Shown here piece after piece: positions 1-36,374 of a stretch of 64,000 bases of DNA. Below the pieces are notes generated by a model. It was not told the origin of the DNA and made no database searches. It was given only the letters and a program-made list of their open reading frames with translations. The stretch is taken from NCBI GenBank assembly GCA_014360495.1, contig JACIXR010000004.1, forward strand, positions 67,983 through 131,982, in the 5' to 3' direction. Numbering within the stretch: the stretch's first letter is position 1; each line of letters opens with the position of its first letter. Source of the DNA: a bacterium (lineage in GTDB: Bacteria; Armatimonadota; JACIXR01). The position numbers and the translations under genes were made by a program.

Positions 1-299
1 TTGGAAGAGTAGTGGTGGAGGCTTGGTCAGCAGGGAAGGCGGTTGTAGGAAGCGATGTTGGAGGAATAAGGGATTTGATAGATGATGGTGAGACCGGTTT
101 GCTTGTTCCGCCGGCAAATCCCTTTTCATTGGCTGAGGCTTTAGAGAAATTAATAAAACAGGAATCTCTGGCGAGAAAATTAGGGGATAAGGGAAAGGAA
201 AAAGCGGAGTTATATAGTGTATCCGCTATGATGGAAAAGACAGTTAAGCTTTATAATTTTTTACTAAAGAGGAAATGCGGAAGGTTGATGTACAAATAA
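1..299 (+). CDS. Glycosyltransferase family 4 (GT1 fold), C-terminal fragment; the 5' end lies upstream of the window
   Basis: The reading frame is open from nt 3 with no upstream stop. The C-terminal region EAWSAGKAVVGSDVGGIRDLIDDGETGLLVPP matches the GT4 E-x7-E / 'GGxxE...G.LV' motif region. Confidence 0.6.
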   Translation, partial: GRVVVEAWSAGKAVVGSDVGGIRDLIDDGETGLLVPPANPFSLAEALEKLIKQESLARKLGDKGKEKAELYSVSAMMEKTVKLYNFLLKRKCGRLMYK

Positions 300-502
300 G
301 GTCAGAGTAATTTTCGCAATTCGCCCCAATAGTTCAGACATAGAAGAGCGATAGCAAAATAAAGCCGCAGGTAGTTATACGCCGCCGTGCCAAAGGTGCA
401 AGCATAAGGAATCTTATCATCTCGTCTATTGGCTCTTGTGGTGGAATAAACGCCTCTGGGTTAAGAAGCAAGATGTTGTTTCACCCTGCGAGCCTTACTG
501 CT

Positions 503-1261
503 TTATTTTCCATGTATTAGGATGCCAATTCCGCCCCAGCCTTGGTTTCTGTCTTTGATGATTTCTCGCCATCGGTTTGGGTATCTTTTACATAATTCTT
601 TCCAAAAATCGTGAACGCGGCATTCGGGGTTACGAAGCGGGAAGACAACATCGTGAAAAGCAATTATACCACCATACCTGACAAGATTAGAGTACATTTC
701 AAAGTCCTTCCTAACCCCTTCATAGGTATGGTCTCCATCAATAAAAAGGAAATCCAAAAAATTGCCTTTTAATATCTCGCGAACTTTCGCCAATGTTTCC
801 TCTTTATGTGAGTCCGTTCTTAAAAGGATAAGTTTTTGCTTCGGCTTGGCAAAAGCTTTATAAATTGGAATTCTCAACTCAGGATAACCACCTCCAAACT
901 TCCCATAGGGTAAATCTACGCTTATTATAACCGCGTCCTCTCTGGCTAACTTGCAGAAGCAAAACAAACTTCCACCATATGCTGTTCCTATTTCCAATAT
1001 AAACCTTGGATTGAGTTCCTTAAATATCTTTAAAAGCTCCAAGAATTCCTCTTTTATTTGCATTGGTTTTATTGCACCGAGGCAGAATCGGGAGCAAAAA
1101 CTCAATACCTCCTCTGGTTCAAGGGAAGAGAAATTGCTGAGCGCCTTCTTTGATAAATTGGTAGAAAGAAAATAATCTCTTAACTTTTTCAAAAACACAA
1201 TCACACCTTCAGGTAGGGTTCCCTTTATCGCTTCTACACTTTTGTTGAATATTCTAAACAT
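503..1261 (-). CDS. Class I SAM-dependent methyltransferase, CmcI/cephalosporin-hydroxylase-like; probable sugar O-methyltransferase
   Basis: The motifs ILEIGTAYGGS, FLFIDGDHTYEGV and GGIIAFHDV are typical of the CmcI/TylF-like methyltransferase fold found in O-antigen loci. Confidence 0.55.
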   Translation of the reverse strand: MFRIFNKSVEAIKGTLPEGVIVFLKKLRDYFLSTNLSKKALSNFSSLEPEEVLSFCSRFCLGAIKPMQIKEEFLELLKIFKELNPRFILEIGTAYGGSLFCFCKLAREDAVIISVDLPYGKFGGGYPELRIPIYKAFAKPKQKLILLRTDSHKEETLAKVREILKGNFLDFLFIDGDHTYEGVRKDFEMYSNLVRYGGIIAFHDVVFPLRNPECRVHDFWKELCKRYPNRWREIIKDRNQGWGGIGILIHGK

Positions 1262-1286
1262 CTTATCTACCTCAATTTCCTTTCAC

Positions 1287-2276
1287 CTAATCATTGCTCC
1301 CTTTATTTTCTAAGGCTGGAGGGAGATATCTGTCAAGGATAAAATATACTCCCAAAATTAAAGCGAAGGGAATGTATAAGAGGTGAGGGGAAAAGATTAT
1401 GGGAAGAAGAGAGGAGAAACAGACGAGAAAGAATAGAAGGAGAGAAGTGAGATTAACGGATTTTACCTTCGCAAGAAGCCTGTGGGGCAGATGGTCTTTG
1501 TCAGTGGAGGTAAGCAGGGGCTTTAATTTCTTAACCCCTCTCCTATATCTTTTGTAATGAACTACTATGAAATCAAGGCAAGGATATATAAAGGGAAAAA
1601 GGGGAAGAAGACCTTGAAGAGGGGAAAGTTGAGAGGAAATTTGAAGTGCTGTCGCTGAGAGAATGGCAGAGAGAAAATATGAACCGCCATCCCCCATAAA
1701 CATTGAGGCAGGATGAAGATTATGGGGAAGCCAGCCTAAAATACAACCAATAAGCACAATAAGAAAAGGTATATCTTTTCCAAAAATAAACGAATATATA
1801 AGGAGGGAAAAAGCTATAGCGAGGGAAGTTGCTCCCGCTGAGCCATCAACAACATCCCAACAATTAAAGGAATTCACTGCACCCATAATGAATAAAACCA
1901 CTAAAAGACTATTGAGATAGCGAATGGGAATAAAGGGGAACCTCCAAGCTGTGTATATGGTCACAAGGGCGAAAAGGAATTGAAGGGGCAATCTGTATAG
2001 CGCCCTTATGTCTAATAAGTCGTCAAGCGTTCCCAAAAGCAAAAAGGCAAGGACGGAAACGAGAAGATAGTAGGGAAGGGTGAAATTGAAAATTGCGAGG
2101 GATAATAGAAAAGAAGAGAAAATCGCCATTCCTCCAAGGTATGGGATGGGTCTTTGGTGAATCTTGCTCCCACGAGAGGGGTCATCAAGAAAGCCGAGCT
2201 TCAAAGCAAGAGCTTTGAATAGAGGGGAAAGAAATAGGGTTAAGAAAAAGGGAAAGAAAAGAGGAACAAGTTTCAT
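1287..2276 (-). CDS. Polyprenyl-phosphate sugar-1-phosphate transferase, MraY/WecA family (initiating transferase)
   Basis: It is a polytopic membrane protein with the motifs LGFLDD, NSFNCWDVVDGSAG and HNLHPASMFMGDGGS, which are typical of WecA/WbpL/MraY. Confidence 0.75.
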   Translation of the reverse strand: MKLVPLFFPFFLTLFLSPLFKALALKLGFLDDPSRGSKIHQRPIPYLGGMAIFSSFLLSLAIFNFTLPYYLLVSVLAFLLLGTLDDLLDIRALYRLPLQFLFALVTIYTAWRFPFIPIRYLNSLLVVLFIMGAVNSFNCWDVVDGSAGATSLAIAFSLLIYSFIFGKDIPFLIVLIGCILGWLPHNLHPASMFMGDGGSYFLSAILSATALQISSQLSPLQGLLPLFPFIYPCLDFIVVHYKRYRRGVKKLKPLLTSTDKDHLPHRLLAKVKSVNLTSLLLFFLVCFSSLLPIIFSPHLLYIPFALILGVYFILDRYLPPALENKGSND

Positions 2277-3268
2277 TGGGAATCAACCACCTCTCTCAAG
2301 GACCTTGCTATATATTCCACCTCAGAATCACCCAGGGAAGGGTATATGGGAATGGAGAGGGCGGTTTTGTAAATGGCATCTGTTTTGGGATAGTCAGGAA
2401 TAGAAAGGTAGTGGTGAATTGGCTTATAAAGCGGTCGCTTGCACTCTATCCCTCTTTCTAGCATTTTTCTTCTAACTTCCTCAAATTCATTCACACGGAT
2501 GACAAAGCGATAATAGACGGAATAAGCAAAGGGTTTATCCTCGGGTGGAAGTGCGATGTTTAGCCCCTTGAGCGCTCCTCTATAATAGCTTGCTATTTCC
2601 CTTCTCCTTTTTATGAAGGAAGGAAGTTTTCCCAATTGAACAAGTCCGATGCTCGCGGAGATATCGCTCATTTTGTAATTGAAGCGAAGCCTGTATTCTT
2701 CAAATTCGTCGTATTCCCTTAAATCCTTTATTCTCTCCAACAAATTAAGGTCATTTGAAAGGACCGCTCCTCCCTCTCCGGTCGTAATCATCTTTGTTGC
2801 ATAAAAGGAAGCAATCGCGATGTCACCCCAACTGCCAAGCTTCCGCCCTTTATACTCACCGCCTATGCTTTGGGCGATATCCTCTATAATCCAAATGCCT
2901 TTATTGGTAAACTCATCTATGGGAGCAGGATGTCCAAATAAATGTGGTATAATGCAAGCTTTTGTCCTGTTAGTGAGCCTCCTTCTAAAGTCGTCAGGAG
3001 AGAGGTTGAAATCATCACCACAATCAACGAGAACTGGTTGGGCGCCTACATAAAGAATGGCGTTGAGGAGGGCGGAACAGACATAAGAGGGAATTAACAC
3101 TTCGTCCCCTTCCTTTAAACCAAGTGCGAGTAGGGCAAGGTGAAGGGCAGATGTTCCGCTTGATGTCGCTACCGCACCCCTAACACCGATGAAATGCGCC
3201 AATCCATCTTCAAATTTCTCCACCATTTTCCCTTGAGCGATATATCCCGATAATATAGTTCGCCTCAC
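2273..3268 (-). CDS. DegT/DnrJ/EryC1/StrS-family PLP-dependent sugar aminotransferase
   Basis: The motifs ATSSGTSALHLAL, IIPHLFGHP and SFYATKMITTGEGG (catalytic Lys) are present. The exact start is uncertain: my manual reading of the printed sequence near 3240 is 1 nt out of register with the track protein, so I kept the track coordinates. Confidence 0.75.
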   Translation of the reverse strand: MRRTILSGYIAQGKMVEKFEDGLAHFIGVRGAVATSSGTSALHLALLALGLKEGDEVLIPSYVCSALLNAILYVGAQPVLVDCGDDFNLSPDDFRRRLTNRTKACIIPHLFGHPAPIDEFTNKGIWIIEDIAQSIGGEYKGRKLGSWGDIAIASFYATKMITTGEGGAVLSNDLNLLERIKDLREYDEFEEYRLRFNYKMSDISASIGLVQLGKLPSFIKRRREIASYYRGALKGLNIALPPEDKPFAYSVYYRFVIRVNEFEEVRRKMLERGIECKRPLYKPIHHYLSIPDYPKTDAIYKTALSIPIYPSLGDSEVEYIARSLREVVDSQ

Positions 3269-3315
3269 AGCATCAGCTTCATCTTCACCAAGAGTGGGGC
3301 GGGAATGAGGAATCT

Positions 3316-4026
3316 TTATATCACTCGTTCTAATTTACCCCCTTTCTTCAATATTTCAACGCTCTTCTCTCCGCAATTGAAGAGCAGGTCCACTATCGCT
3401 AAATCGGGTATGAAGCCGATTTGGGGAAAGCGCTGAGGATAAACGGGGCATTCCCAGCGTTGAACCCAAACCTCTATTCCGTTTTCCTTAAAGGATTGAA
3501 GGTCCAGATATTCCTCCAATGCTTTCTCACCGGTGAGATAGGCGTCTGCGCCTACAGCCTTGCAGATATTTAATAGCTTCTCGGAACCTTTACCTTCCGC
3601 GCCCAGAGCGGTGGAACGAACTACGGGTGTTTTTATGTTTAAGATGGATAGAAAAACTTCCAACATCTTCCCGTTGAGCTCGCCGAGAAACGCTGGAGTG
3701 TTTGTTTCGTAAAAGGGCTGGAGGAAGTGAATGTAGTCCTTGTAAAAGGGGGCGGAGTTGTAGTTCGTTTTAAGGGCATAAAGGTGTTTCTCCCTCCAGC
3801 GCGAGGTGTTTTCTATTATGGTTTCTCCGATGCTTTGACCGAATTTATGGATAACTGGAACAGTTAAATAAATCGCGCCTTGGGCGCTTTTTATCTTGTT
3901 CCTATTATGCCATTCTCCCTTAACGAACTGTGCATCATCAAGGAGAATGAAAAGCTCTGCCTCCATAATCTTATGGAAGTATCTCAACCATGGGAGATAA
4001 TGAGGTTGATGAATTGCGACGAGCAT
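3316..4026 (-). CDS. WbqC-like family protein (polysaccharide biosynthesis accessory protein)
   Basis: MLVAIHQPHYLPWLRYFHKI matches the WbqC-family N-terminus. The likely start is the internal Met, which places it just after the stop of the upstream PIG-L gene (the track ORF extends to 4077). Confidence 0.6.
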   Translation of the reverse strand: MLVAIHQPHYLPWLRYFHKIMEAELFILLDDAQFVKGEWHNRNKIKSAQGAIYLTVPVIHKFGQSIGETIIENTSRWREKHLYALKTNYNSAPFYKDYIHFLQPFYETNTPAFLGELNGKMLEVFLSILNIKTPVVRSTALGAEGKGSEKLLNICKAVGADAYLTGEKALEEYLDLQSFKENGIEVWVQRWECPVYPQRFPQIGFIPDLAIVDLLFNCGEKSVEILKKGGKLERVI

Positions 4027-4027
4027 A

Positions 4028-4756
4028 TCAAAGCACCAGCCTGTGGCAGATAAATGCCTCCGCTGCCTTGACCCCAACCTGCGAGCCCCTCATCCTTGCC
4101 AATCTCTCCAAATTTTCAAAACTCGCGAAATGGGGCTCGGGACGCAATTGAGAGGAATGGAGAGAGAGGGCTTTCAACTTTACCTCGAGGAATTCCGATA
4201 TATCTACATACACATTGGGATGAAAAGGGATATAACTCCAACAATGATGCGGGCATTCAGCGGATAAGACCATATTCACGAAGTGTCTCGTTGAGGGGTC
4301 GTGGGGACGGAGAGCGGCGAAGGCTGACTCAAATACTATCCGATGGTCAAGGGTATATGAGGGGAAGGGGATTATCACCATCGTTGGTTTGATTTTGTTT
4401 ATCGCAAGTTTCCCTTTATCCTCCAATAATTCTATCAAATCACGCTGGGGGAAAGTATCCAAGCGGAGGTGATATCTGCTTTCCTTAAGGAGCAGGTCCC
4501 AATCATCAACATTAAGAAATTGAGCACAACGAGATATCTCAGAAAGCCTTGTCTCATTGTCAACCTTTACCCTTTGCCCTTCTTTGTATGCGAAAATCTC
4601 CCCACTATTTACTATAACGAGGAAAACCTTTCCACCAAGGCTCTTAACCTTTGCCATAGTGCCGGCGCAGTGAAACGCCTCATCATCTGGATGAGGCATT
4701 ATCACTAACAACCTTTGCTTTGAGAGGAGTGAATCTCCCAATTTTTCTTGCACCAT
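4028..4756 (-). CDS. PIG-L/LmbE-family N-acetylglucosaminyl deacetylase
   Basis: LLVIMPHPDDEAFHCAGT contains the signature PIG-L HPDDE motif. Confidence 0.7.
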   Translation of the reverse strand: MVQEKLGDSLLSKQRLLVIMPHPDDEAFHCAGTMAKVKSLGGKVFLVIVNSGEIFAYKEGQRVKVDNETRLSEISRCAQFLNVDDWDLLLKESRYHLRLDTFPQRDLIELLEDKGKLAINKIKPTMVIIPFPSYTLDHRIVFESAFAALRPHDPSTRHFVNMVLSAECPHHCWSYIPFHPNVYVDISEFLEVKLKALSLHSSQLRPEPHFASFENLERLARMRGSQVGVKAAEAFICHRLVL

Positions 4757-5706
4757 TCTATGGTCATCACCAATCCTTCCTCAAGACTTACCTTTGGCTC
4801 GAAGCCGAGAAGTTTTCTCGCCTTATTTATATTGGGCACCCTGCGGGGCACATCCTCATGCTTTGAGCCGAAGTAATCTTCGTATGGGATGTGAATGATG
4901 GGCGAAGGGGAATTCGTGAGCTTCTTGATGAGGTTCGCTAAATCAACTATTCTTATTTCATTTTTAGGGGAACCTATGTTGAAGACCTCGCCAATAGCTT
5001 CGTTTTTTGTTCCAGCGAGAATAGTTCCCTCAACAGCATCGCTCACATAGGTGAAGGAACGGGTCTGGTTTCCTGTGCCGTGTACGGTGATTGGTTCTCC
5101 CGTTAGAGCCTGACGGATGAAGTTTGCGATTACTGTTCCATAGCCGAGGGAATTTATCCTTGGTCCATATATATTGAAATATCTCACGCAGGTCACAGGC
5201 AACCCGCTATGATAATAGGCGAAGGCGAGATGTTCGTCAAGCGCTTTGGCGGTGCTATAGCACCAACGGGGAATCCAGGTGGGACCGAGAAGCCTGCTTG
5301 TTCTTTCGCTCAGGGGAATTCTGCGATTTCGCCCATAGACCTCCGAGGAGGAGGCAAGAACAACCCTCCTCTTGTATTTATGAGCTGAAGCCAATATATT
5401 GAGAGTTCCTTCTACATTGACGAGAATAGTTAGGAGAGTATTGTCAACCACATACTTTACCCCCACTATTGCTGCAAGATGATAAACCGTGTCGCTTTTC
5501 TCAATTAGCGCATCAACGAGTTCCTTGTCCAGGATGTCTCCCTTTATGAAATGGAAATTTTTGTTAGATTTAGCTTTGGATAGATTAGCTTCGTTATCCT
5601 TGATGAAAAGATTATCCAGCGCAAAAACCTCGTGACCCAAAGATAGAAGGGCATCAACCAAATGAGAACCTATAAAACCTGCTCCTCCGGTAACTAATAT
5701 TCTCAT
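4705..5706 (-). CDS. NAD-dependent epimerase/dehydratase (SDR), nucleotide-sugar epimerase or decarboxylase-like
   Basis: It has the Rossmann motif MRILVTGGAGFIGSHLV and the catalytic Y-x3-K motif (YSTAKAL). A GGAGGG ribosome-binding site sits directly upstream of the ATG. Confidence 0.8.
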   Translation of the reverse strand: MRILVTGGAGFIGSHLVDALLSLGHEVFALDNLFIKDNEANLSKAKSNKNFHFIKGDILDKELVDALIEKSDTVYHLAAIVGVKYVVDNTLLTILVNVEGTLNILASAHKYKRRVVLASSSEVYGRNRRIPLSERTSRLLGPTWIPRWCYSTAKALDEHLAFAYYHSGLPVTCVRYFNIYGPRINSLGYGTVIANFIRQALTGEPITVHGTGNQTRSFTYVSDAVEGTILAGTKNEAIGEVFNIGSPKNEIRIVDLANLIKKLTNSPSPIIHIPYEDYFGSKHEDVPRRVPNINKARKLLGFEPKVSLEEGLVMTIEWCKKNWEIHSSQSKGC

Positions 5707-5996
5707 ATGACCCTCCTGCGAAATCTTTCCTTAATTTTAAAAATTGCACAAAAAATTGCAAGCAAAAATTTTAAAAATTATTATAGTTTTGATCTTTCTC
5801 TCTTAAAGGAGAATGTTTTCAAAGGGGAAAAATAATGACATATTGCTTAACTGTTTCACGAGGGAAAGACTCTAAGGAGGTTATAGCTATGCCTTAGCCC
5901 AAGCGAAGAGGACTTTGTCTATTGCATTCCTTCTATTTGAAGGTTAGATTATATCTAAGAAAAATTCCAGATTCTAAGACAAGTTTAAAAATGTCT

Positions 5997-7373
5997 TTAT
6001 TGTTTCTGTGAACCCTTTATTTTCTTTGCGATTTCCTTTAATTTCTCTATAAGGACGACCAAATCATTTTTTCTTGGCAAAAAGATATCTTTTAATGATA
6101 TTTTCTCCAATTTTTGGAAGAAGATGAGAATGACGAAAAAAGCAAGGGAATAGGCAATTGAGGAGGCTATGCTCGCCCCAATTATCCCCCAGCGAGGGAT
6201 TAGAAGGAAATCTAAAAGGATGGTTAAGATGGAACCAGTGAGACTTCCGTATAAGTTATATTGGGGGTAACCTCTACCGAGGATATGGTGTGCGAGAAAA
6301 CCTGTATACATCCAGGATATTATGCCCGGGAGAAGGTAAGGAATGACAGAGATTGAGGGGCGAAACGCGGAACCGAATAGGAGGGGAATAATTAAAGGGG
6401 CGAAAAAATAGAGGATTAAAGCGGAAGGGAGGTAATAAAAGGGAAGAAGGCGGGTGAGTAAAGAGGTTAAACTCCTTGCCTCTTGAGGGGAAACAGATGA
6501 AACTTGGGGGAATAAAACGATGTGAATTGAAGCGGCGAAAAGCCGTAAAAGCTCTGTGTAGTTCACGCCGGTCATATATAACCCTACATGTCTAGCCCCT
6601 AAATACGCATTCACAACAAAGACATCAAATCGAGTATTGACCATCCACAGAATGTCTCCAAGGGAAATTACCGCGCCATATTTCAGCATGCCTTTTAATA
6701 CTTCCCTATTAAGGTGAGGGGAAAAATGCTCTGGGCGAATCACATCGTTCAGGAAATAGAAAGATAAAGCGGTGCTAATGGGGATTAAAAACCACTCAGA
6801 GGCTAAAGCCCCCCATACTCCCCATTTCAGTAGGATTAGGAAAGAGGCAAGGAGGACAAGGCGAAAAAAGATGGAGAGCGTGTTTATTAGGAAAGAATAA
6901 TTGAATCTTCTTAAAGCCAAAAGGCTATAGCTTAGAGGGGATAAGTAAACTGTTAATAAGCTGATGAGGAGAGAGACCCGTAGTAAAAGAGAGGGAACAC
7001 CCTTGAGGAAAGAGGAGGCGAGGTAGGGAGTTAGAAGAATGAAAGCGAATGTCAGGGGAAAGAAAAAATAGAGGACGAAGGAACAGAATGACCCGATTAT
7101 ATCCTTTATTGGGTATTTCTTATTCGCGATGAAATATTCAAGGGCGATAGGGAGACCCAAGAGGACCATTACCTGGTAGAAGGAAAGGAAGGTCTGGAGG
7201 GTATTGACTATTCCTTTTCCCCTTGGACCCAAATAGCGAGCGACTATAATTGAGCCGACTATTCCCAAGACAAAGGAGAGAATCCTTGAAGCAAAGTGAT
7301 AGATGACATTTACGCTGAAGGAAGGTGCGCTTCTATCTTTTCTTATGAGTTTTTCTATAGTCGTTCTAAACAT
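5997..7373 (-). CDS. Wzx-type oligosaccharide/O-antigen flippase (MOP superfamily polysaccharide biosynthesis protein)
   Basis: It encodes a 458-aa protein with about 12-14 hydrophobic helices and polysaccharide-biosynthesis-protein architecture. It is the last gene of the minus-strand sugar operon. Confidence 0.65.
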   Translation of the reverse strand: MFRTTIEKLIRKDRSAPSFSVNVIYHFASRILSFVLGIVGSIIVARYLGPRGKGIVNTLQTFLSFYQVMVLLGLPIALEYFIANKKYPIKDIIGSFCSFVLYFFFPLTFAFILLTPYLASSFLKGVPSLLLRVSLLISLLTVYLSPLSYSLLALRRFNYSFLINTLSIFFRLVLLASFLILLKWGVWGALASEWFLIPISTALSFYFLNDVIRPEHFSPHLNREVLKGMLKYGAVISLGDILWMVNTRFDVFVVNAYLGARHVGLYMTGVNYTELLRLFAASIHIVLFPQVSSVSPQEARSLTSLLTRLLPFYYLPSALILYFFAPLIIPLLFGSAFRPSISVIPYLLPGIISWMYTGFLAHHILGRGYPQYNLYGSLTGSILTILLDFLLIPRWGIIGASIASSIAYSLAFFVILIFFQKLEKISLKDIFLPRKNDLVVLIEKLKEIAKKIKGSQKQ

Positions 7374-7583
7374 TTAGAAAATCATAAAGAAATCAACGAG
7401 AAGGGTCTTCACTTTCCTATCCAAGATACCAGGTCGCGAGCAAGATATCATCTTTCCTTCATCTGCTATTTTCCTATAGTTTTTAGAAAATCTTGGCTTT
7501 GTTAAAAGAATAGAATCTCTATTTATTTTAACTATTTAACCTCCTTCTCGTTGCTTTTCTCTTCTCAAAAATTATGATAAAAG

Positions 7584-7605
7584 ATAAAATCAAGTCAAGT
7601 TTTAT
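7584..7605. promoter_or_regulatory. 22-bp dyad element ATAAAATCAAGTCAAGTTTTAT, copy 1. On the minus strand it reads ATAAAACTTGACTTGATTTTAT, which contains a -35-like TTGACT
   Basis: It is an exact 22/22 duplicate of the element at 9246-9267. The outer arms ATAAAA/TTTTAT are inverted, and the core is a tandem TCAAG TCAAG. On the minus strand TTGACT is followed by a 17-nt spacer and then ATAATT (a -10-like box). Confidence 0.5.
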
Positions 7606-8036
7606 ACTTTTTGCTCATCTATTGATTCACTTTATTACTTTTTTGTTCATAGAGCTCTCAGCACTTGTATGATTCTCCAAGCTAGATTTGCTCTTATTCC
7701 GAATTTCTTAAAGTGTTCCAAGCAAATGAGAACTGCACTTTTTTAAAAGTTTTATAATCTCCACAATTAAATAAGTTCTTTAAAGGTATCATAAAATAGA
7801 CCAATTTTAGGCGCTTCATCAACCAAAGCCATTTTCAATTGAAAATTGAGTTTATCCTAACCCATGTTTTAGCTTTAACAATAAATGAGGGATATTTAAA
7901 GGAATTAAGATAAAAGGTAATATTTGAAACAAAAGTCAAGTCCGCTTTTCTTAAAAAGTCGTTTTTTTATCAGTTGAGGAATTACATTAGCAAATAAAGT
8001 AGAGAAGATTGTGTTTGTAATGGACACAAATAGCGC

Positions 8037-9095
8037 TTAATAGCTTATTTCTTTATATATTTCAACAAGGCGATGCGCTAATTTCACTGCGTCGTGATAC
8101 TTTTCCGCATATTGACGACTTCGCTTGCCAATTTCATGTCGTAACTTTCCATCCTTTAGGAGATTTTCAAGAACATCCACCAGATTATCTTGGTTAGCAT
8201 TAACTATAGGCAAGTCGGGAGGATATTTTTCGCGAATAGAGGGTTTAATATAACAAATTACTGGTTTGCCAAAAGCCATAGCTTCTACACTCCCCATTCC
8301 GTAGAACCCCAAAACGAATTGGTCAAGGAATATATCAGCCCTCTGCATAATTTGGAGAGCTTCTCTATGAGGCATATTTTTAACTAAAATAAACTGAAAA
8401 TCGTGTTTTTCCTTTAATAACTCAACCGCTTTTAGCACGGCGCTGGTGCCCTTTAAAACTGGTTCGCTTGGAGCATGCACAACGATTGGGCGCCGAACAG
8501 TTGGGTCGGGATAGAAAGGCTTAAATTCCGAAAGGAAGAGACGTTGAAACACAAGATAACTCTTCGTCCAGAGGTTTGGGAAGAGATATTGTTGCATTTC
8601 GACTGGCACTATGCAAGCGAAACCCGATTTCGCAAACAAGCTTTGATTACGATACGATTTTTCTAAACTGACACCTCTAAGAGCTTTGTAATAATCCATG
8701 ATGGGTAATGAATAAGGGTTGTCTTTTGCCTCTACCTCGGGAATCCTTATATCTGAGCCTTGCCATTCAACAACACCGGGTTTTTTAAGAAGCTTTAAAT
8801 ATCCCAGGTCCATTCTTCCTAGGCGCGTTGGAAGGGCAGGTTCACCATAATACCAGTGAATAACATCCGCCCATTGGGCAAATTTTAAAAAAAGATATGT
8901 TGCTCGTATCCACACAATAACATAATTTGCTATTTTTTTTCTCGGAGGAAACCTTAAATTCACAAGTCCCTCAGAGGACCACATGGGCGAATTGTTATAT
9001 GCCAGGCTGCGAACATCAACTCCAATTTCCCTCAAACCTTTAACTGTGTGATACATATAGGAGGCAAGATTAACAGGGAGATGAAGAACCCTCAT
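8037..9095 (-). CDS. Glycosyltransferase, GT4-like
   Basis: The C-terminal domain has the motifs GFYGMGSVEAMAFGKPVIC and QYAEKY. An AAGGAG ribosome-binding site lies 8 nt upstream, so the likely true start is ATG at 9095 (MRVLHLPV...). The track ORF begins at an upstream in-frame ATG at 9137. Confidence 0.55.
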   Translation of the reverse strand: MRVLHLPVNLASYMYHTVKGLREIGVDVRSLAYNNSPMWSSEGLVNLRFPPRKKIANYVIVWIRATYLFLKFAQWADVIHWYYGEPALPTRLGRMDLGYLKLLKKPGVVEWQGSDIRIPEVEAKDNPYSLPIMDYYKALRGVSLEKSYRNQSLFAKSGFACIVPVEMQQYLFPNLWTKSYLVFQRLFLSEFKPFYPDPTVRRPIVVHAPSEPVLKGTSAVLKAVELLKEKHDFQFILVKNMPHREALQIMQRADIFLDQFVLGFYGMGSVEAMAFGKPVICYIKPSIREKYPPDLPIVNANQDNLVDVLENLLKDGKLRHEIGKRSRQYAEKYHDAVKLAHRLVEIYKEISY

Positions 9096-9097
9096 TT

Positions 9098-9208
9098 TTA
9101 TCGCTCCTTGATTTTGCGAGCGGGAACACCTGCCCATATTTTATAGGGCGGAACACTATCACGGATTTCTATATTCTCAAGATGGAAGGTGAGCACTTCT
9201 TTTTTCAT
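9098..9208 (-). pseudogene. 36-aa ORF resembling only the extreme C-terminus of a hexapeptide-repeat (LbH) acyltransferase; probable gene remnant
   Basis: The manual translation is MKKEVLTFHLENIEIRDSVPPYKIWAGVPARKIKER*. The 'VPPY.I.AG.PAR.I' stretch is the conserved C-terminal tail of LbH acetyltransferases. A good ribosome-binding site (AAAGGAGGGATACTAA ATG) precedes it. Its stop codon is 2 nt from the GT4 start. Confidence 0.35.
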
Positions 9209-9245
9209 TTAGTATCCCTCCTTTATTTGAAAATGTACCAGGATA

Positions 9246-9267
9246 TAAAAATCAAGTCAAGTTTTAT
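9246..9267. promoter_or_regulatory. 22-bp dyad element ATAAAATCAAGTCAAGTTTTAT, copy 2; probable promoter for the minus-strand remnant ORF and GT4 gene
   Basis: It is identical to the copy at 7584-7605, and the flanks also share similarity (TTTTAT-n-CT(T)TCATC). On the minus strand it reads TTGACT, then 17 nt, then TACATT, about 40 nt before the ribosome-binding site at 9220. Confidence 0.5.
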
Positions 9268-9285
9268 TTGTGCTTTTCATCCTTG

Positions 9286-9650
9286 CTACCTATAGCCGTG
9301 ACAAGTGGGGCAGGCGCCATAGGGGGAGTTGAAGGAAAACTTTTTCGGCTCCAGTTCGCCCATACTGAATCCGCAAATCGGACAGGCGAATTCCTCTGAG
9401 AAATAGAGCTCTTCCCCGTCCATCACGCTAACTATCACCTGTCCCTTGCCCATCTTCAAAGCCGTCTCAAGGGAATCGGTTAATCTTCCCTTTATCCCTT
9501 CCCTCAAGACTATCCTGTCAACAATCACCTCAATGTGATGGATTTTGTATTTATCAAGTAGGGGGGATTTCCTCCTCGGCGAGATTTAGCATCTGCCAAT
9601 CTACCCTTGTGTTGCCTTGCGCCTCTGATGATAATCTTGTCCTGGGGCAT
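9286..9650 (-). pseudogene. uvrA: uvrA relic (excinuclease ABC subunit A). About 14 N-terminal codons are fused by frameshift and deletion to a segment around residues 225-300. The rest of the roughly 940-aa protein is absent
   Basis: On the minus strand from 9650 the sequence reads MPQDKIIIRGARQH, which is the UvrA N-terminus (M-DKIIVRGAREHNLKN). The frame is then lost. The ORF 9286-9528 encodes DRIVLREGIKGRLTDSLETAL...FACPICGFSMGELEPKKFSFNSPYGACPTCHG, which matches the UvrA zinc-finger region (FACPICGYS...LFSFNNPAGACPTCDGLG). It terminates immediately before the 22-bp element. Confidence 0.6.
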
Positions 9651-9894
9651 GGGTTCTCTTTAAATTGATTTTAGCGAAGGGAAGATAAAAGTCAAGATAG
9701 TGGTAATTCCTCGTAGAGGGAGAAGATATTCTCATGGCTTTCAAGAAGGCGTTGTAGTAATGGGGTTTCGTTGTCATAGCGTGGGTTGAGTTTTTTGTCT
9801 TTGGGAGCGGTAGCGAAGAAATGATAGAAAGGTGGACAAGAAGAGATTGCCACGGGCTCCCTACAGGAGCCCTCGCAATGAGGGGTAGTATATT

Positions 9895-10443
9895 CTACTT
9901 GTCGGTTTCCTCTTCCTTTTCCGAGCCTCGTTTAGCGAAAGTATAGGCTTCCATTGCGAAAGCGAAGTTTAGAAATCCCCAGAGGAGGAAGAACCAGGGG
10001 ATTTTGAAGGCGAAGGGGATGATAACGAAGATTGCGCCAAGCACTATTCCAGCGATTCCTTTTGATGTATCGCCGTTATACAACTGCCCCAAGCCCGCGA
10101 ACACAAGGGAAAGTAGCCCGGCGATTAAAGGGAATCTTTTCACGGGAGGAAGGTTCAAATCAAATTTTCCCGCTTCCTCGTTTATTTTCAAAACCGTTCT
10201 CGCCAACTTCTTCTCCACTTCTCCCGCGGAGGGATTCTTCTCCAAAGCCTTTTTATAAAATGATAGAGCTTCTTGCAAATCGCCTTGCATTGATTTTATA
10301 TCCCCCATTAACTCCAGAGCGGATGGGTCTTCAGGCTCCTCATTCAGTATCTGTTGGCAGGTGGAGATGGCTTTTTTAATCTCGCCTCTTTTTAGATAAA
10401 GAAGAGCGAAGCGCAGAAGCTTTTCCTTTTCCTCCTCATTCAT
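9895..10443 (-). CDS. TPR-repeat protein with a C-terminal TM2-like double transmembrane domain
   Basis: The N-terminus has TPR-like helices (KAISTCQQILNEEPEDPSALELMGD...ALSFYKKALEKNP). The C-terminus has GLGQLYNGDTSKGIAGIVLGAI plus a second helix. Confidence 0.55.
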   Translation of the reverse strand: MNEEEKEKLLRFALLYLKRGEIKKAISTCQQILNEEPEDPSALELMGDIKSMQGDLQEALSFYKKALEKNPSAGEVEKKLARTVLKINEEAGKFDLNLPPVKRFPLIAGLLSLVFAGLGQLYNGDTSKGIAGIVLGAIFVIIPFAFKIPWFFLLWGFLNFAFAMEAYTFAKRGSEKEEETDK

Positions 10444-10729
10444 ACCAGATTTCCTCCAATTTATAATATTCCCTCGCCTCAGGGGAGAAAATATGCACTA
10501 TCACATCGCCGCAATCTATTAGAGACCATTTCAAGGCATCTATTCCTTCAATTGAAATTGGAGGGGTGCCGCTTTTCTCAAGGCTTTCCTCCACCGCTTC
10601 TATCAAGGCTCTTGCGTGAGTATCAGATGTAGCAGAGCAAATCACGAAGTAATCCGCAATCACCGTCTTATCCCTGGTTCTGATAACGACTACATCCTCC
10701 GCCTTCTTTTTCTCTAAAATCCTTGCCAA
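10436..10729 (-). CDS. rsfS: Ribosome silencing factor RsfS (Iojap family)
   Basis: DYFVICSATSDTHARAL and VIVHIFSPEAREYYKLEEIW match the RsfS signature. It starts at TTG, and a stop codon lies immediately upstream in frame. Confidence 0.8.
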   Translation of the reverse strand: MARILEKKKAEDVVVIRTRDKTVIADYFVICSATSDTHARALIEAVEESLEKSGTPPISIEGIDALKWSLIDCGDVIVHIFSPEAREYYKLEEIWYE

Positions 10730-26906: not shown

Positions 26907-29024
26907 TTATATTGCTTTCATAAGAATAAGGGCGAGGAGTGTTGCTTCTTCAGGTGAGATATCTTCCCGCTCCAAAAAGAAGTTCGCTACAACTCTTTCC
27001 TCCTCGCTCAATTTTCCTAAATCGGAGAATTTCGCCAATCTCTCCGCGAATTTCTTGTAATTTCCCTTCCCAAAATGGCGTAAGGCGAGCATTATTCCCC
27101 TTCTAATCCTTCTCTTTCCCTTACCAACTCTTCTCAATATGCTCTCCACACGCTGGTATAAGGTTAGGAGGTCTAAAGAAAGCAAGGGGTAGAGATTTAT
27201 TCCCATCAATTTTCCAATAGAATAAATCCATTGTCTTTTGAAAAGGGGAGACTTGAACTTTTCCCTGATGCTAAGAAGACTGCTCAATGCGGATTTTTCT
27301 CCCGATTTAGCCAGATAGTAAGAAATGTGTGCTAAAATTTCCTCATCTTCCTCTTCCTGCAAAAGTGAGGGCAGTTTTTCCGCGCCGAGGGTGTCTAATT
27401 CATAAGTTGCCTTAAGAGTTATTTCCCTTCTCCGTCCCAACTTCGCTAAAGCTTCCAAAACTTCGCTTGCGAACATCTTTTCGGTTTCTAAATATCTTTC
27501 TAGGGCTTCAATCGCCTTCTCATTGCCTATTTCTCCCAAAGCTATTATCGCTTCTCTTCTCACCTCGGGATTTGGGTCTTGAAGGAGGTTTATCAAATTA
27601 TCAATTGCGAGGGAAGAGTGTGGAATTGCCAAAGCTTTTATAGCCTTTATTTTTTCTTCTTCCTTTCCGCTTGCCAGCAAGCGGAGCGCCCTAAGGGTTC
27701 CTATAGGTTTTCTAGGCACAATGTCCCTTACAAGTTCTAAGGGAGATTCTTCCTCTCTGTATTCCCTTATTGTCCGAAGAAGTGAAAGCGAGAGTAGGCG
27801 CAGAACGGTGGAGAGAATGAAAAGAATTTTTATATTCGTTAAATCAAGGGCTAAAAAGGTGATGTGTAGTCCTTTTAAGGCGTTCACTATCAAGCCCCCA
27901 AGGAAAGGAGAGACAGCCCCCGTGAGGGAGACGAGGGCGGAATGAATACCGACATAGGACATCCTTTTAATAGGAGGGGAGAACATAAGGAGTAGGTTGA
28001 ACTGGGTTAGCATAATACCCGCCCAGAGAGCGCCGGCGAAGATATTCACCAGATAAAGAAGAATAAGCGAAAGGGTGGGAAAGCGTGGGGTCATAAAAAT
28101 GTAGAAAAAGGGGATAAGGGAAGCGAGGAGGCTTGTTAAAAGGAGGATGCTTTTATTTGAGTATCTATCGGCGAGGTAGCCGAAGAAAGGTTGAGCAAGG
28201 AGCCCTGCTATCCCTGAGGAGATAGATACCAAGACAATCGTTGTATAGGAGAGGTGGAGATATTTGAGCATAAAAACCGAGAAGAATTGCCCGGGCATAA
28301 TCACTGCGAAATTCCAAAGGGATATGAAAAAGGTATAAAATTTGAAGTTTTTATCCTTAAGCGGAAGGACGAGCTCATGGATAAGAGAAAGGTCTTTTTG
28401 AGGTTCTCTATAGGGTTCCGGTTGTAGAAATATTATGATTATCTCAACTATGGCGAATAAGGCAGCGGTTGCGAAGACGAGAGGGAAGGCTATCTTTTTA
28501 GGCAATACATCTACGAGCCTTCCCATAGATAAGGAAACGACCATCCCTGCCAATCCAGCATACATATTTCTGCGTGCGAAATATCGTCCCCTGATATCCT
28601 CGGGAACGATATCACCCAACCAGCTGACATAGGGTGGATTTGTGAGAGAAATAAATATATTAAAAAGGGTGTAAGAAGCGAAGAAAAGAAATAGGGAATA
28701 GGAGAGGGATTTGAAGAATGGAAGGAAGATGATGGGTATCCAAAATAGGATGGAGAAGATGTAGAATATGTTGGTGAAGAATTTTCTCGTTAGTCTTGAT
28801 TTCTCCGCCCAGAAAGAAGCAAGGGGTTGAACAACGCCCGCGAGGACTGGAATTGCTCCCAATAAACCTATTTCCAAGCTCTTTGCTCCCAAATAGAGAG
28901 CGAATCCCGTTATGAAGACACCAGTCCAAAGGTTGTAGGCGCAGGTGCCTATTATTGCTCCCCAATTGAACAGGCGAAGCGCCTTTGTCGTTTCTTGATG
29001 AGAAAGGGTTGTCTTAGCCCTCAC
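26907..29024 (-). CDS. MFS transporter (about 12 TM) fused to a C-terminal cytoplasmic domain of about 230 aa of HEAT / PBS-lyase-like repeats
   Basis: The N-terminal 470 aa are polytopic. The C-terminus has repeated units ([40 protein letters not shown] and [10 protein letters not shown]). Its start overlaps the kdsA stop by about 10 nt. Confidence 0.65.
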
Positions 29025-29835
29025 TTTCTTTGACTATACGGAATATCTTCACGGCTAATTCAAGAATTGGGAACAGGCTATTTAAGGGGAGCATTGTCGC
29101 TGAATCGGATAGAGCTTTTGTTGGCTCTGGGTGGGTTTCAAGGAATATAGCATCAACGCCAACAGCGCAGGCGGCTCTTAATAGATAGGGAGCCATTTCC
29201 CTATCTCCCCCAGAAACTCCCTTTCCCGCTCCGGGCATCTGCACGCTATGCGTTGCATCAAAAACAACAGGGTAGCCGAAACTTTTCATAATGACCAATG
29301 AACGGAAATCTACCACCAAGTTGTTATAGCCAAAAGAAGTTCCTCTCTCGCAGAGAAGGATGTTTTTATTGCCCGTGCTTTCAATCTTCTCAACAACATA
29401 ACGCATATCCCAGGGAGCGAGGAATTGCCCTTTCTTGACATTTATTGGCTTTCCTGTCCTGCCGGCTGATAACAAAAGGTCAGTCTGCCGGCATAGAAAT
29501 GCGGGAATCTGTAGAGCATCAACGATTCTGCCAACGATTGAGGCTTCAGCTGGGGAATGGACATCCGTTAGAACGGGGACTCCTACCTTTTCCCTTACCG
29601 TTTGGAGTATCTCCAATCCCTTCGCCAATCCGGGACCGCGAAATGAGCTTATTGATGTTCTGTTAGCCTTGTCATAGGAGGATTTGAAAACATATCCTAT
29701 TTTCAATTTTTCACATATCTCTTTTAATTTGAAGGCTACCTCAAGACAGAGCTCCTCGCTTTCAATAACACATGGCCCCGCTATCAGAACAAGTTTATCT
29801 CCACCTACAACGACATTTCCGATTTTCACTTGCAT
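29014..29835 (-). CDS. kdsA: 3-deoxy-8-phosphooctulonate (KDO-8-P) synthase
   Basis: It has IAGPCVIES and DVHSPAEA and is a 273-aa (beta/alpha)8 protein, typical of KdsA. Confidence 0.9.
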
Positions 29836-30557
29836 CCCAATAGTTTTCTCACCCTTTCCAAGTCCTCAGGAGTGTCAACGCCGACTGGGCTATAATCAAC
29901 GAGAACGATTTTTATCTTGAAGCCGTGTTCCAAAGCCCTCAATTGTTCCAATGACTCAGTCCTTTCCAAGGGAGTTTGGGGAAGAGAAACGAATTTGAGG
30001 AGAAAATCCTTTCTATAGCCATAGATTCCGATGTGTCTTAATGTGGGAGCGATGGGATTGCGATAAAAGGGGATTGGAGAGCGGGAAAAATAAAGAGCTA
30101 TCCCATTTCGGTCGGTAACTACTTTCACCACATTGCTATTACCCCTTTCCTCATTGTTTGCTAAGGTTGCAGCTGAGGTCATAGGGGTTACCTCATCGCT
30201 TTCCCTTAGCGCCTCAGCTACTTTATCAATGACCTCCGGCGGAATTAGGGGTTCGTCCCCTTGGATATTTATGACGAAATCGCAATCAATTTTTCTCGCA
30301 ACCTCAGCGCAGCGGTCTGTTCCAGAAGGATGAGAGGGAGAGGTCATAACAGCCTTGCCCCCGAATTTCTCAACAGCTTTCAAGATTCGTTCGTCGTCTG
30401 TAGCAACCAGGACATCCTCCAAGAGTTTAGATTTTTTTGCCTGTTCGTAAACGTATTGAATAAGAGGTTTCCCGCAGATGTTCGCTAAGGGTTTTCCAGG
30501 CAGGCGAGTTGCGGAATAGCGGGCGGGAATTATGCCTATGATTTTCATTTCTTGCAA
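29826..30557 (-). CDS. kdsB: 3-deoxy-manno-octulosonate cytidylyltransferase (CMP-KDO synthetase)
   Basis: It has [19 protein letters not shown] and NIQGDEPLI. Confidence 0.85.
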
Positions 30558-31036
30558 TACCTCTCCACTATAGTTTTTATTATATTGCTTGTGGACTTCC
30601 CTTCAACTCCCTTCGCTATCATAACCTGTCCTCCCAATGAACGAACCAATTTAGCCTCGGGAAGCTCATCGGGTGATTGATAATCTCCTCCCTTGATATG
30701 GACATCGGGCTTTATCAACTTGATAAGCTCATCGGGGACGGTTTCCTCAAAGATGACCACGAAGTCCACCATTTCCAAGGACGCTAATATCTCCGCCCTT
30801 TCCTCCTGCCCCATAATGGGTCTACTTTCTCCCTTTATTTTTCTCACCGATTCGTCGCTATTTAAACCAACAATGAGAATATCGCCTTTGCTTTTCGCTT
30901 CCCTTAAATAGCGGATATGACCTAAATGGATGATGTCAAAGCAACCGTTCGTGAAAACTATCCTCTTCCCTTCCGACCTCAATCTTCCTACTAAATCAGC
31001 GATTTTCTCCCTTTCAATTATCTTTTCCATCTTCAT
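30545..31036 (-). CDS. hldC: D-glycero-beta-D-manno-heptose-1-phosphate adenylyltransferase (RfaE domain II as a stand-alone protein)
   Basis: It is a cytidylyltransferase-like protein with VFTNGCFDIIHLGHIRYL and FVVIFEE, 163 aa long. Confidence 0.8.
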   Translation of the reverse strand: MKMEKIIEREKIADLVGRLRSEGKRIVFTNGCFDIIHLGHIRYLREAKSKGDILIVGLNSDESVRKIKGESRPIMGQEERAEILASLEMVDFVVIFEETVPDELIKLIKPDVHIKGGDYQSPDELPEAKLVRSLGGQVMIAKGVEGKSTSNIIKTIVERYCKK

Positions 31037-32593: not shown

Positions 32594-32651
32594 ATATTTA
32601 GATTTTATTCATTTTTGCCAGATATTCAATTGGATTATAGAATAATTTTGT

Positions 32652-35886: not shown

Positions 35887-36374
35887 TATAAGTCTTCAAT
35901 CTTGGAAGGTAAAATAGCAGCTAAAAACGATTCCCACGCACCTGCTAGTAGGAGATAAATGCGAGCAAAGGGGAATCCAACTCGTTGAAGGGCGAGCTTT
36001 AGAGGTTCCTTCGACGAATGAGTTAAATATTGTGGAGGTGCATTCCGCCTGGCGCCACTTGGAGTTATATGAGTGGAGATGATGTGAGGCTGTCTTTCTT
36101 TGAACAATTTAATCAAAGAGAGGAAAATAGTGATAATTGTTCCTGCCTCTATGAGAGTTATCATTGAGTTTTTAGGATAGGGGAATCCTCCCATTTTCTC
36201 TTCTTCGATTTTCGTCCTTATCCTTCTTAAAATCGCAAGTTCACGCTCCCATTCAGGAGACATGTTTTCAATTATCGCCTTTAAACTTCTTTCCATACCA
36301 CCATTAAACCAATGGGCAGCAATGAAAAGAACTTTCTTTTTGCTAAATTGAGAGTTTGAGCCTGGCCCCATCAA
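35856..36374 (-). pseudogene. 172-aa ORF corresponding only to a GT4 N-terminal domain (no catalytic C-domain); probable truncated glycosyltransferase
   Basis: KVLFIAAHWFNGGMERSL...HIISTHITPSG resembles Glyco_trans_4-like_N. The ORF ends inside the start of the next heptosyltransferase gene, and the EX7E-containing half is missing. Confidence 0.35.

What the first reader, a model, noticed from the sequence alone, without database searches (positions are those of the whole stretch)
9286..9650. Degraded uvrA relic: N-terminal 14 codons joined to a zinc-finger segment (around residues 225-300), with the remaining 85% or so of the gene absent
On the minus strand, MPQDKIIIRGARQH (the UvrA N-terminus) is followed by frame loss. 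Then comes an ORF of about 80 aa matching UvrA, ...DRIVLREGIKGRLTDSLETAL...FACPICGFSMGELEPKKFSFNSPYGACPTCHG. It stops exactly where the 22-bp ATAAAACTTGACTTGATTTTAT element begins. This is a gene-decay scar in the middle of a surface-polysaccharide locus. It implies either an ancient local deletion or insertion history, or loss of a uvrA paralog.
Basis: seen in the sequence. Interest (0 to 1): 0.6.

Follow-up and report, generated by a model that had tools for sequence, protein, structure and literature searches.

The report
Leftover uvrA fragment beside inserted island
This is a real but dead fragment of the DNA-repair gene uvrA, and it is a decayed partial copy left at the edge of an inserted block of about 19 sugar-coat genes, while an intact uvrA sits at the other end of that block on the same contig, so the organism has not lost the gene.

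Summary
On the minus strand, 9650-9607 is uvrA nt 1-44 and 9608-9294 is uvrA nt 537-850 (codons 180-283; PDB UvrA E=2e-36). The fragment carries a 494-nt internal deletion, an extra C in a C-run and four substitutions.

The fragment ends 26 nt before the repeated element, not at it. It lies at the edge of the polysaccharide locus, not in its middle.

Exact-sequence look-ups place the window on a 266,941-nt NCBI MAG contig. Protein accessions there run in gene order: YchF 529, intact 950-aa UvrA 530, 19 island genes 531-549, TPR 552. Relatives (L005, L177, L185) and a strain with an identical flank (L001+L172) have TPR-uvrA-ychF with no island.

So the relic is a partial 5' duplicate of uvrA (promoter plus the first 850 nt). 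It was left on the TPR side when a roughly 20-kb polysaccharide island entered between TPR and uvrA, and it has decayed since. The relic-island junction recurs in independent assemblies from at least six samples.

The mechanism is inferred: single-crossover or other duplicative insertion. The far junction could not be read. This is an ordinary kind of insertion scar, of low to moderate interest.

The parts
9668..9695 (-). uvrA promoter-like site retained upstream of the relic (TTGACT, 16-nt spacer, TAAAAT)
   Evidence: 10 of 12 consensus matches. The same sequence lies upstream of the intact uvrA in L001/L172, with one spacer difference at 9678.
9607..9650 (-). uvrA nt 1-44: start codon plus codons 1-14, with one synonymous difference at 9609 (CAT to CAC)
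9607..9608 (-). Internal deletion junction. 494 nt of uvrA (about nt 45-538) are missing. The junction has AA microhomology. An alternative reading is a 488-nt deletion between the imperfect repeats AAGGCAACA and AAGGCTTCA plus loss of one AAGGGT unit.
   Evidence: BLAST of L001 and L172 against the window; junction contexts.
9294..9608 (-). uvrA nt 537-850 (codons 180-283): the C-terminal half of the UvrB-binding domain plus the CPICG...CPTCHG zinc module. It is 98.4% identical to the intact gene. Differences: G183W (9598), V238 synonymous (9430), R267K (9344), C281 synonymous (9301).
9561..9566 (-). C6 run where the intact gene has C5; a +1 frameshift inside the relic
9525..9650 (-). 41-aa ORF that the native start codon now opens (MPQDKIIIRGARQH followed by out-of-frame residues)
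   Evidence: It is not on record as a called gene.
9286..9528 (-).
   Evidence: It is not on record as a protein.
9268..9293 (-). 26 nt of unassigned sequence between the end of uvrA homology and the repeated element; the outermost visible island sequence
   Evidence: It is present unchanged in Logan contigs L085-L087 and L168-L171.
9248..9267 (-). Copy 1 of a 20-nt exact repeat (ATAAAACTTGACTTGATTTT on the minus strand). It holds the -35 hexamer of the promoter-like site at 9260-9232.
7586..7605 (-). Copy 2 of the 20-nt repeat. It holds the -35 hexamer of the promoter-like site at 7598-7571, upstream of the flippase gene.
9098..9208 (-). 36-aa ORF whose last 20 residues resemble the C-terminus of a hexapeptide acetyltransferase; a possible second gene remnant at the island edge
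   Evidence: weak, E=0.034; 65% over 20 aa against the L005 acetyltransferase.
1..9293 (-). TPR-proximal part of the inserted polysaccharide island. It holds GT (MBC7329549), flippase (548), epimerase, PIG-L deacetylase, WbqC, aminotransferase, GT4 (WecA-like), methyltransferase (542) and the start of GT 541. The island continues beyond the window's left end down to gene 531. GC is 41.6% against 45.3% for the core.
9895..10443 (-). TPR protein gene (MBC7329552.1), the last core gene before the relic. In relatives uvrA follows it directly.

Best explanation
The relic is a non-functional partial duplicate of the 5' end of the organism's own class I uvrA. It consists of the promoter, codons 1-14 and codons 180-283.

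The ancestral gene order in this lineage is nadD-LCP-rsfS-TPR-uvrA-ychF. In the window's genome, a block of 19 polysaccharide-biosynthesis genes lies between TPR and uvrA. About 14.2 kb of the block was seen and six genes were not, so it is roughly 20 kb in total.

On the TPR side the block is bordered by a copy of the uvrA promoter plus the first 850 nt of the gene. On the other side it is bordered by the complete uvrA-ychF pair. Both copies are on the same strand.

Inferred step: the duplication arose with the insertion. The most likely route is a single (Campbell-type) crossover between the chromosome and incoming circular DNA that carried a uvrA 5' fragment ending at nt 850, or some other duplicative or illegitimate insertion. 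The redundant truncated copy, under no selection, then lost 494 nt, gained a +1 C and took four to five substitutions. The full copy stayed intact.

The relic does nothing for DNA repair. At most, its promoter may read into the island.
For: Shown:
- uvrA homology and exact anatomy.
- An intact allele sits at the same site in a strain whose 10.7-kb flank is identical (L001+L172).
- TPR-uvrA-ychF adjacency without an island holds in relatives L005, L177 and L185, and uvrA-ychF adjacency in L088 and L090.
- The window's proteins are exact matches to NCBI proteins of one 266,941-nt contig. Their accessions and locus tags run in gene order: MoxR 521, Pol IV 526, YchF 529, UvrA 530, Wzy-like 538, GTs 539-541, methyltransferase 542, flippase 548, GT 549, a 53-aa ORF 551, TPR 552, RsfS 553, LCP 554, IleRS 590.
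- The relic is closest to the species' own gene: 98.4% identity, against 92%, 90%, 87% and 79% for L090, L088, L089 and L005.
- Four of the five changes in the 3' segment are unique to the relic when compared against four outgroups, and they include G183W, R267K and the frameshift.
- The relic-island junction is identical in Logan contigs from SRR11866713, -714, -715, -724 (the -724 contig is also listed for two further samples) and SRR28822788. All of these contigs start 30 nt upstream of the relic/intact SNP at 9301, as expected for a k=31 assembly graph that holds both copies.
- The island's GC content is below that of every equal-sized core window.
Against: - The far junction (gene 531 against the region upstream of the intact uvrA) was not seen, so duplication of the promoter and spacer there is inferred only from the complete 950-aa product.
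- The 494-nt deletion junction, the C6 run and three substitutions are seen only in the window. No independent contig covers them.
- No recombinase or att-like repeat was seen in the 14 kb of island available.
- All seven differences from the island-free strain cluster in 9678-9301, with none in the next 10.7 kb (Fisher p=6e-11). Explaining this needs an extra assumption: recombinational transfer of relic plus island into this background, or excision producing the island-free strain.
Confidence: 0.7

Rival explanations
1. The relic is what remains of the genome's only uvrA at its native site. Most of the gene, together with ychF, was deleted or replaced by the polysaccharide locus, leaving the organism without nucleotide excision repair.
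For: Within the 64-kb window there is no other uvrA, no ychF and no Pol IV gene. The relic sits exactly where relatives have the intact gene.
Against: An intact 950-aa UvrA (MBC7329530.1) and YchF (MBC7329529.1) are recorded on the same 266,941-nt contig, 19 genes beyond the relic, and the downstream synteny is preserved (Pol IV 526, MoxR 521).
Confidence: 0.04
2. The relic comes from a once-complete second copy of uvrA, produced by a tandem or segmental duplication. That copy was later truncated at nt 850 by the island's arrival or by a deletion, and then decayed further.
For: The evidence shows two uvrA-derived sequences in direct orientation with 98.4% identity. It does not show whether the duplicated segment ever extended beyond nt 850.
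Against: This needs more events: a full duplication, then a truncation that happens to coincide with the island edge. None of the relatives examined has a second uvrA or uvrA traces in the TPR-uvrA spacer.
Confidence: 0.13
3. The island is a site-specific integrative element that targets uvrA and carries its own replacement 5' end, in the way SXT/R391 elements use the 5' end of prfC. On this reading the relic is the displaced resident 5' end, and 9293/9294 is an att junction.
For: The geometry fits: a displaced 5' fragment on one side and a functional gene on the other. There is presence/absence polymorphism between near-identical strains. [quoted passage not shown]
Against: No integrase, excisionase or transfer gene appears among the 13 island genes seen; all are polysaccharide genes. 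The UvrA of the island-bearing MAG is identical to that of the island-free samples, so there is no sign of a foreign 5' end. The duplicated length of at least 850 nt is far longer than typical att sites.
Confidence: 0.08
4. The relic is an assembly artefact. The MAG contig would be a chimeric or collapsed path through a mixture of strains, and a normal uvrA would span this position.
For: The source is a metagenome-assembled genome. Island-free and island-bearing haplotypes both exist in public data. The internal deletion junction and the C6 run have no independent support.
Against: The 3' junction and 9.3 kb of island are reproduced base for base by a different assembler in at least six samples from two projects. 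A junction with 2-nt microhomology cannot be made by k-mer overlap. The relic carries its own unique substitutions.
Confidence: 0.05

Closest known systems
Class I UvrA, excinuclease ABC subunit A (NCBIfam NF001503 / TIGR00630; structures 2R6F, 3PIH)
   Same: The sequence is derived from it. Codons 1-14 and 180-283 align with the UvrB-binding domain end and the zinc module (E=2e-36 to 2r6f). It is 98.4% identical in DNA to the species' own intact gene.
   Different: Only 12.5% of the gene is present. Both ATP-binding modules are missing. There are two frame changes and premature stops. The score is 116 bits against a family cut-off of 1147. It is a pseudogene fragment, not a family member in any functional sense.
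Campbell-type (single-crossover) integration of circular DNA that carries a 5' gene fragment. It leaves one truncated and one complete copy flanking the insert (textbook bacterial genetics; stated from my own knowledge).
   Same: The layout matches: promoter plus truncated 5' copy, then inserted DNA, then the complete gene, all in direct orientation. The truncated copy ends abruptly at one point (nt 850).
   Different: Neither the circular intermediate nor the reciprocal junction has been seen. The insert is a chromosomal-type polysaccharide gene block, not a recognisable plasmid or phage.
[quoted passage not shown]
   Same: In both cases an island sits at the 5' end of a conserved housekeeping gene and the gene remains functional after insertion.
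   Different: No tyrosine recombinase or transfer genes are seen. The homology is hundreds of nt long rather than a short att site. The target gene and the cargo are different.
Strain-variable O-antigen or capsule loci that are exchanged by homologous recombination in conserved flanking genes (for example E. coli rfb between galF and gnd; stated from my own knowledge)
   Same: This is a polysaccharide gene block with slightly lower GC. It is present or absent between strains whose flanks are identical, and sequence differences pile up right at the boundary.
   Different: Here the alternative allele at this site is no island at all, not a different gene set. One boundary is marked by a partial duplicate of the flanking gene.

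Membership tests
UvrA (class I excinuclease ABC subunit A) | Whole-protein score reaches the curated family cut-off (NF001503: 1147 bits; TIGR00630: 730 bits) | tested here: not met
   116 and 91.5 bits for the frame-corrected translation.
UvrA (class I excinuclease ABC subunit A) | Two ABC ATPase modules (Walker A/B and signature motifs) in a protein of about 940 aa | tested here: not met
   Only nt 1-44 and 537-850 of 2853 are present. Walker A (GLSGSGKS, residues 33-40 of the intact protein) lies in the deleted part, and the C-terminal module is absent.
UvrA (class I excinuclease ABC subunit A) | UvrB-binding domain and zinc module with the CxxC...CxxC motif | tested here: met
   FACPICG...GACPTCHG and the preceding domain align to 2r6f residues 198-299. 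This shows descent from uvrA, not function.
UvrA (class I excinuclease ABC subunit A) | One uninterrupted reading frame | tested here: not met
   A 494-nt deletion (not a multiple of 3), a +1 C and stop codons in all frames.
Pseudogene / gene remnant | Significant homology to a functional gene, disrupted frame, and an intact counterpart at the same position in relatives | tested here: met
Genomic island bounded by direct repeats of a target-gene fragment | Presence/absence polymorphism against an otherwise collinear backbone | tested here: met
   Island-free: L001+L172, L005, L177 and L185. Island-bearing: the window/NCBI contig and the Logan contigs L085-87 and L168-176. The backbone order is preserved on both sides.
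Genomic island bounded by direct repeats of a target-gene fragment | Repeat of the target sequence at both ends, in the same orientation | tested here: inconclusive
   The relic was read directly. The intact uvrA at the other end, and its strand, are inferred from accession order (YchF 529 before UvrA 530) and contig length. The sequence itself was not available.
Genomic island bounded by direct repeats of a target-gene fragment | Recombinase (integrase or transposase) or mobility genes | tested here: inconclusive
   None among the 13 island genes seen. Six genes (MBC7329531-536) were not seen.
Genomic island bounded by direct repeats of a target-gene fragment | Adjacent tRNA/tmRNA gene or deviating base composition | tested here: inconclusive
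   No tRNA or tmRNA in the window, L174, L172 or L177. GC is 42.1% against a core mean of 45.3%, just below the range of equal-sized core windows.

The most novel reading that the evidence does not exclude
The uvrA 5' fragment is not just a scar. It is the homology handle by which a polysaccharide island of about 20 kb enters and leaves the chromosome through single crossovers with uvrA (Campbell-in and Campbell-out). This would give an on/off surface-polysaccharide polymorphism among otherwise identical strains of an uncultured oil-reservoir bacterium. The retained uvrA promoter might also read into the island.
Probability: 0.12. Interest if true: 0.55.

Novelty: new member of a known kind. 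Interest (0 to 1): 0.25.

Why it matters
- It corrects a tempting inference. A reader of this window alone would conclude that the organism has lost nucleotide excision repair. It has not.
- The relic is a dated marker of how and where a strain-specific polysaccharide island was acquired, next to a housekeeping gene whose upstream spacer varies across the genus.
- It shows that short intragenomic repeats of this kind break short-read assemblies at predictable points, here exactly k-1 bases from a distinguishing SNP.
- If the island proves to move by recombination through the uvrA repeats, it would be a simple recombinase-free route for switching a surface structure on and off.

Tried and rejected
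- I looked for uvrA 3' sequence, ychF, Pol IV and an S24 protein elsewhere in the window by tblastn and found none. The 927-aa and 1033-aa ORFs are IleRS and a glycosidase.
- I first read the Logan contig starts at 9331 as proof that relic-bearing and intact strains co-occur. After, the intact copy in the same genome explains them equally well, so I dropped that inference.
- I considered that L001 might be a graph shortcut through an island-bearing genome and rejected it. The contig crosses every point where the relic and the intact copy diverge without breaking, and exact island proteins are not recorded for its sample.
- Long neutral decay alone cannot explain the cluster of differences: 7 in about 390 nt against 0 in 10.7 kb.
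- I tried to reach the far junction through the deacetylase. The full-length protein P0326 exists only in the NCBI record. Its paralog P0386 turned out to be window ORF 32652-33686. The 73% homolog P0327 lies in unrelated loci.
- The relic ORFs (80 aa and 41 aa) are not on record as called genes.
- There is no Rfam family in 7000-10500 and no tRNA or tmRNA.
- The spacers of L185, L177 and L005 hold no uvrA traces.

Full report

Yes. On the minus strand an ATG at 9650 opens MPQDKIIIRGARQH. Downstream, an 80-aa GTG-start ORF (9528-9286) reads ...DRIVLREGIKGRLTDSLETAL...FACPICGFSMGELEPKKFSFNSPYGACPTCHGYR.

I built a frame-corrected translation of 9650-9286. It matches solved UvrA structures (2r6f E=2e-36, residues 198-299 of the tagged chain). 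It also matches the NCBIfam UvrA equivalog NF001503 (E=1e-33, profile positions 178-284 of 943). The score of 116 bits is far below the family cut-off of 1147, as expected for a fragment.

**2. Exact anatomy**

A public Logan contig, L001 (SRR24635346), is 99.98% identical to window 20443-9607 and continues into an intact uvrA. A second contig, L172 (SRR14699989), overlaps L001 perfectly over 1126 nt. It carries the whole 950-aa gene followed by ychF.

Measured against this intact allele:
- Window 9650-9607 is uvrA nt 1-44, with one synonymous difference at 9609.
- The next 494 nt are deleted. The junction at 9607/9608 has only AA microhomology. It can also be read as a 488-nt deletion between the imperfect repeats AAGGCAACA and AAGGCTTCA plus loss of one AAGGGT unit.
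- Window 9608-9294 is uvrA nt 537-850 (codons 180-283).
- This segment carries G183W (9598), an extra C in a C5 run (9566-9561), a synonymous change at 9430, R267K (9344) and a synonymous change at 9301.
- Homology stops at 9294. The remaining 2003 nt of uvrA are absent here.

So 12.5% of the gene is left. The fragment ends 26 nt before the repeated element (9267), not at it.

**3. What lies around it**

Upstream in the direction of transcription are nadD, an LCP-family gene, rsfS and a TPR-protein gene. Downstream are, in order:
- a 36-aa ORF whose tail resembles an acetyltransferase C-terminus;
- a glycosyltransferase gene;
- 660 nt of AT-rich non-coding DNA;
- a flippase gene;
- seven further polysaccharide genes that run to the window's left end.

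The relic therefore sits at the boundary between core genes and the polysaccharide genes. The uvrA promoter-like site (TTGACT-16-TAAAAT, 9695-9668) is retained.

**4. Relatives**

Three species-level relatives and several metagenome contigs were examined:
- L005 (94% UvrA identity) has nadD-LCP-rsfS-TPR-uvrA-ychF.
- L177 (97%, an 83-kb JGI contig) has the trp operon, then nadD-LCP-rsfS-TPR-uvrA-ychF-S24-Pol IV and on to MoxR.
- L185 (96%) has the same order, with a 1.46-kb spacer before uvrA.
- L088 and L090 have uvrA-ychF.

None has an island between TPR and uvrA, and none has uvrA traces in the spacer. The ancestral arrangement is thus TPR-uvrA-ychF.

**5. The decisive result**

Exact-sequence look-ups show that the window's proteins are NCBI proteins of one 266,941-nt contig of a MAG labelled only 'bacterium' (locus-tag prefix H5T88). 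Their accessions follow gene order:

| Accession (MBC73295xx) | Protein |
|---|---|
| 21 | MoxR |
| 26 | Pol IV |
| 29 | YchF |
| 30 | UvrA, 950 aa, identical to the L172 product |
| 37 | polysaccharide deacetylase (assigned by position; NCBI record P0326) |
| 38 | Wzy-like (H5T88_04185) |
| 39-41 | three glycosyltransferases |
| 42 | methyltransferase (window 503-1261) |
| 48 | flippase |
| 49 | glycosyltransferase (window 8037-9095) |
| 51 | a 53-aa ORF in the spacer (H5T88_04250) |
| 52 | TPR |
| 53 | RsfS |
| 54 | LCP |
| 90 | IleRS |

The locus-tag step (65/5 = 13) equals the accession step between 538 and 551. No unlisted locus tags intervene.

Read leftwards from TPR, the genome is TPR, relic, 19 island genes (549 down to 531), uvrA, ychF and on to Pol IV and MoxR. 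This is the order in L177 with the island and the relic added. Because YchF (529) precedes UvrA (530) and the two are always co-directional, the intact gene is on the same strand as the relic. The organism therefore keeps a complete uvrA. The relic is a partial duplicate of its 5' end.

**6. Is the junction real?**

Logan contigs from the following samples reproduce window 9331-1 base for base, apart from one indel in SRR28822788. They extend the island 4.7 kb beyond the window:
- SRR11866713, -714, -715 and -724 (the -724 contig is also listed for two further samples);
- SRR28822788.

All but one of these contigs start at 9331. The first 31-mer of such a contig ends exactly on the relic/intact SNP at 9301. 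This is the signature of a k=31 graph branch between two near-identical copies.

The internal deletion junction, the C6 run and three substitutions have no independent confirmation. A junction with 2-nt microhomology is not something an assembler creates.

**7. How it most likely arose (inferred)**

A truncated copy with its promoter on one side, a complete copy on the other, both in direct orientation, is the product expected of a single (Campbell-type) crossover. The incoming DNA would have been circular and carried a uvrA 5' fragment ending at nt 850. A duplicative illegitimate insertion would give the same layout. The redundant copy then decayed.

Four of the five changes in the 3' segment are unique to the relic when compared against four outgroups. 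Two of them hit conserved residues. The relic is closest to the species' own gene: 98.4% against at most 92% for other lineages.

**8. A puzzle**

All seven differences between the window and the island-free strain lie in 9678-9301, and none lies in the next 10.7 kb (Fisher p=6e-11). Neutral decay alone cannot give this pattern. Two explanations fit, and neither was tested:
- The relic and island moved as a unit into an L001-like background by homologous recombination in the TPR flank and in uvrA.
- The island-free strain arose by recombination between the two uvrA repeats.

**9. Habitat and taxon**

SRR11866724 is one of the Shengli metagenomes (PMC9635834). The nearest named UvrA proteins are from Armatimonadota, at about 66% identity. 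The lineage is otherwise unclassified.

**10. Comparison with known things**

The sequence descends from class I UvrA but fails every functional criterion of that family. The layout works like a Campbell integration.

It superficially resembles SXT/R391 elements, which insert at the 5' end of prfC (PMC2791158). No recombinase was seen among the 13 island genes available, and the UvrA of the island-bearing genome shows no foreign 5' end.

It also resembles strain-variable O-antigen and capsule loci that are exchanged through flanking homology.

**11. Verdict**

'Loss of uvrA' is wrong, and the coordinates and residue range need correcting. This is a new example of a known kind of insertion scar, of low to moderate interest. 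The one point worth following up is whether the uvrA repeats mediate gain and loss of the island.

Noticed in passing
window 7586-7605 and 9248-9267: A 20-nt exact direct repeat (ATAAAACTTGACTTGATTTT on the minus strand), 1662 nt apart. Each copy supplies the -35 hexamer TTGACT of a promoter-like site (9260-9232 and 7598-7571), and similarity extends about 15 nt upstream. It is found only in this island, in two copies. It may be a duplicated promoter/operator.
   Followed up: partly
window 9098-9208 (-): A 36-aa ORF with a good ribosome-binding site. Its last 20 residues (NIEIRDSVPPYKIWAGVPAR) resemble the C-terminus of a hexapeptide acetyltransferase (65% to the L005 enzyme). It may be a second gene remnant at the island edge.
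   Followed up: partly
window 7374-8036: 660 nt with no ORF above 42 aa and about 34% GC, lying between the glycosyltransferase and flippase genes. It may be the residue of deleted genes.
   Followed up: no
window 9838-9881; L090 5271-5308; L185 8605-8650: A hairpin-forming element of about 40 nt (core GCGAGGGCTCCTGTAGGGAGCCCGTGGC) lies just after the TPR gene. It recurs after ychF in L090 (97%) and after TPR in L185 (91%). It occurs only once in this window. It looks like a small dispersed repeat or terminator of the genus.
   Followed up: partly
TPR-uvrA spacer: L005 2918-3017, L001 10549-10794, L177 9535-10001, L185 8539-10001: The spacer ranges from about 100 nt to 1.46 kb among close relatives. 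Its ends are conserved (hairpin and promoter) and its middle varies, holding small unannotated ORFs of 69, 119 and 120 aa. The site seems prone to insertions.
   Followed up: partly
L086/L175 (SRR28822788), equivalent to window 8037-9095: In this sample the glycosyltransferase gene has a 1-nt indel that splits it into 68-aa and 292-aa products instead of one of 352 aa. This is either decay of the island gene in another strain or an assembly error.
   Followed up: no
L174 14028-14041 (about 4.7 kb left of the window start): Every Logan contig of the island stops within 13 nt of the same point inside the deacetylase gene (MBC7329537, by position), in all samples. This implies a repeat or a strain-variable boundary there. 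The cause is unknown.
   Followed up: no
window 9692-9853 (-): A 53-aa ORF in the TPR-uvrA spacer is annotated in NCBI as hypothetical protein MBC7329551.1 (H5T88_04250). One further protein (MBC7329550) lies between it and the glycosyltransferase and could not be identified. The relic itself does not appear as a protein.
   Followed up: partly
window about 29000-38500: A second envelope-sugar cluster lies in the core region. It includes a KDO-8-P synthase-like gene, a CMP-KDO synthetase-like gene, sugar isomerase and kinase genes, a polysaccharide deacetylase gene (32652-33686) and several GT9/GT4 glycosyltransferase genes. It is present unchanged in island-free samples (L179).
   Followed up: no
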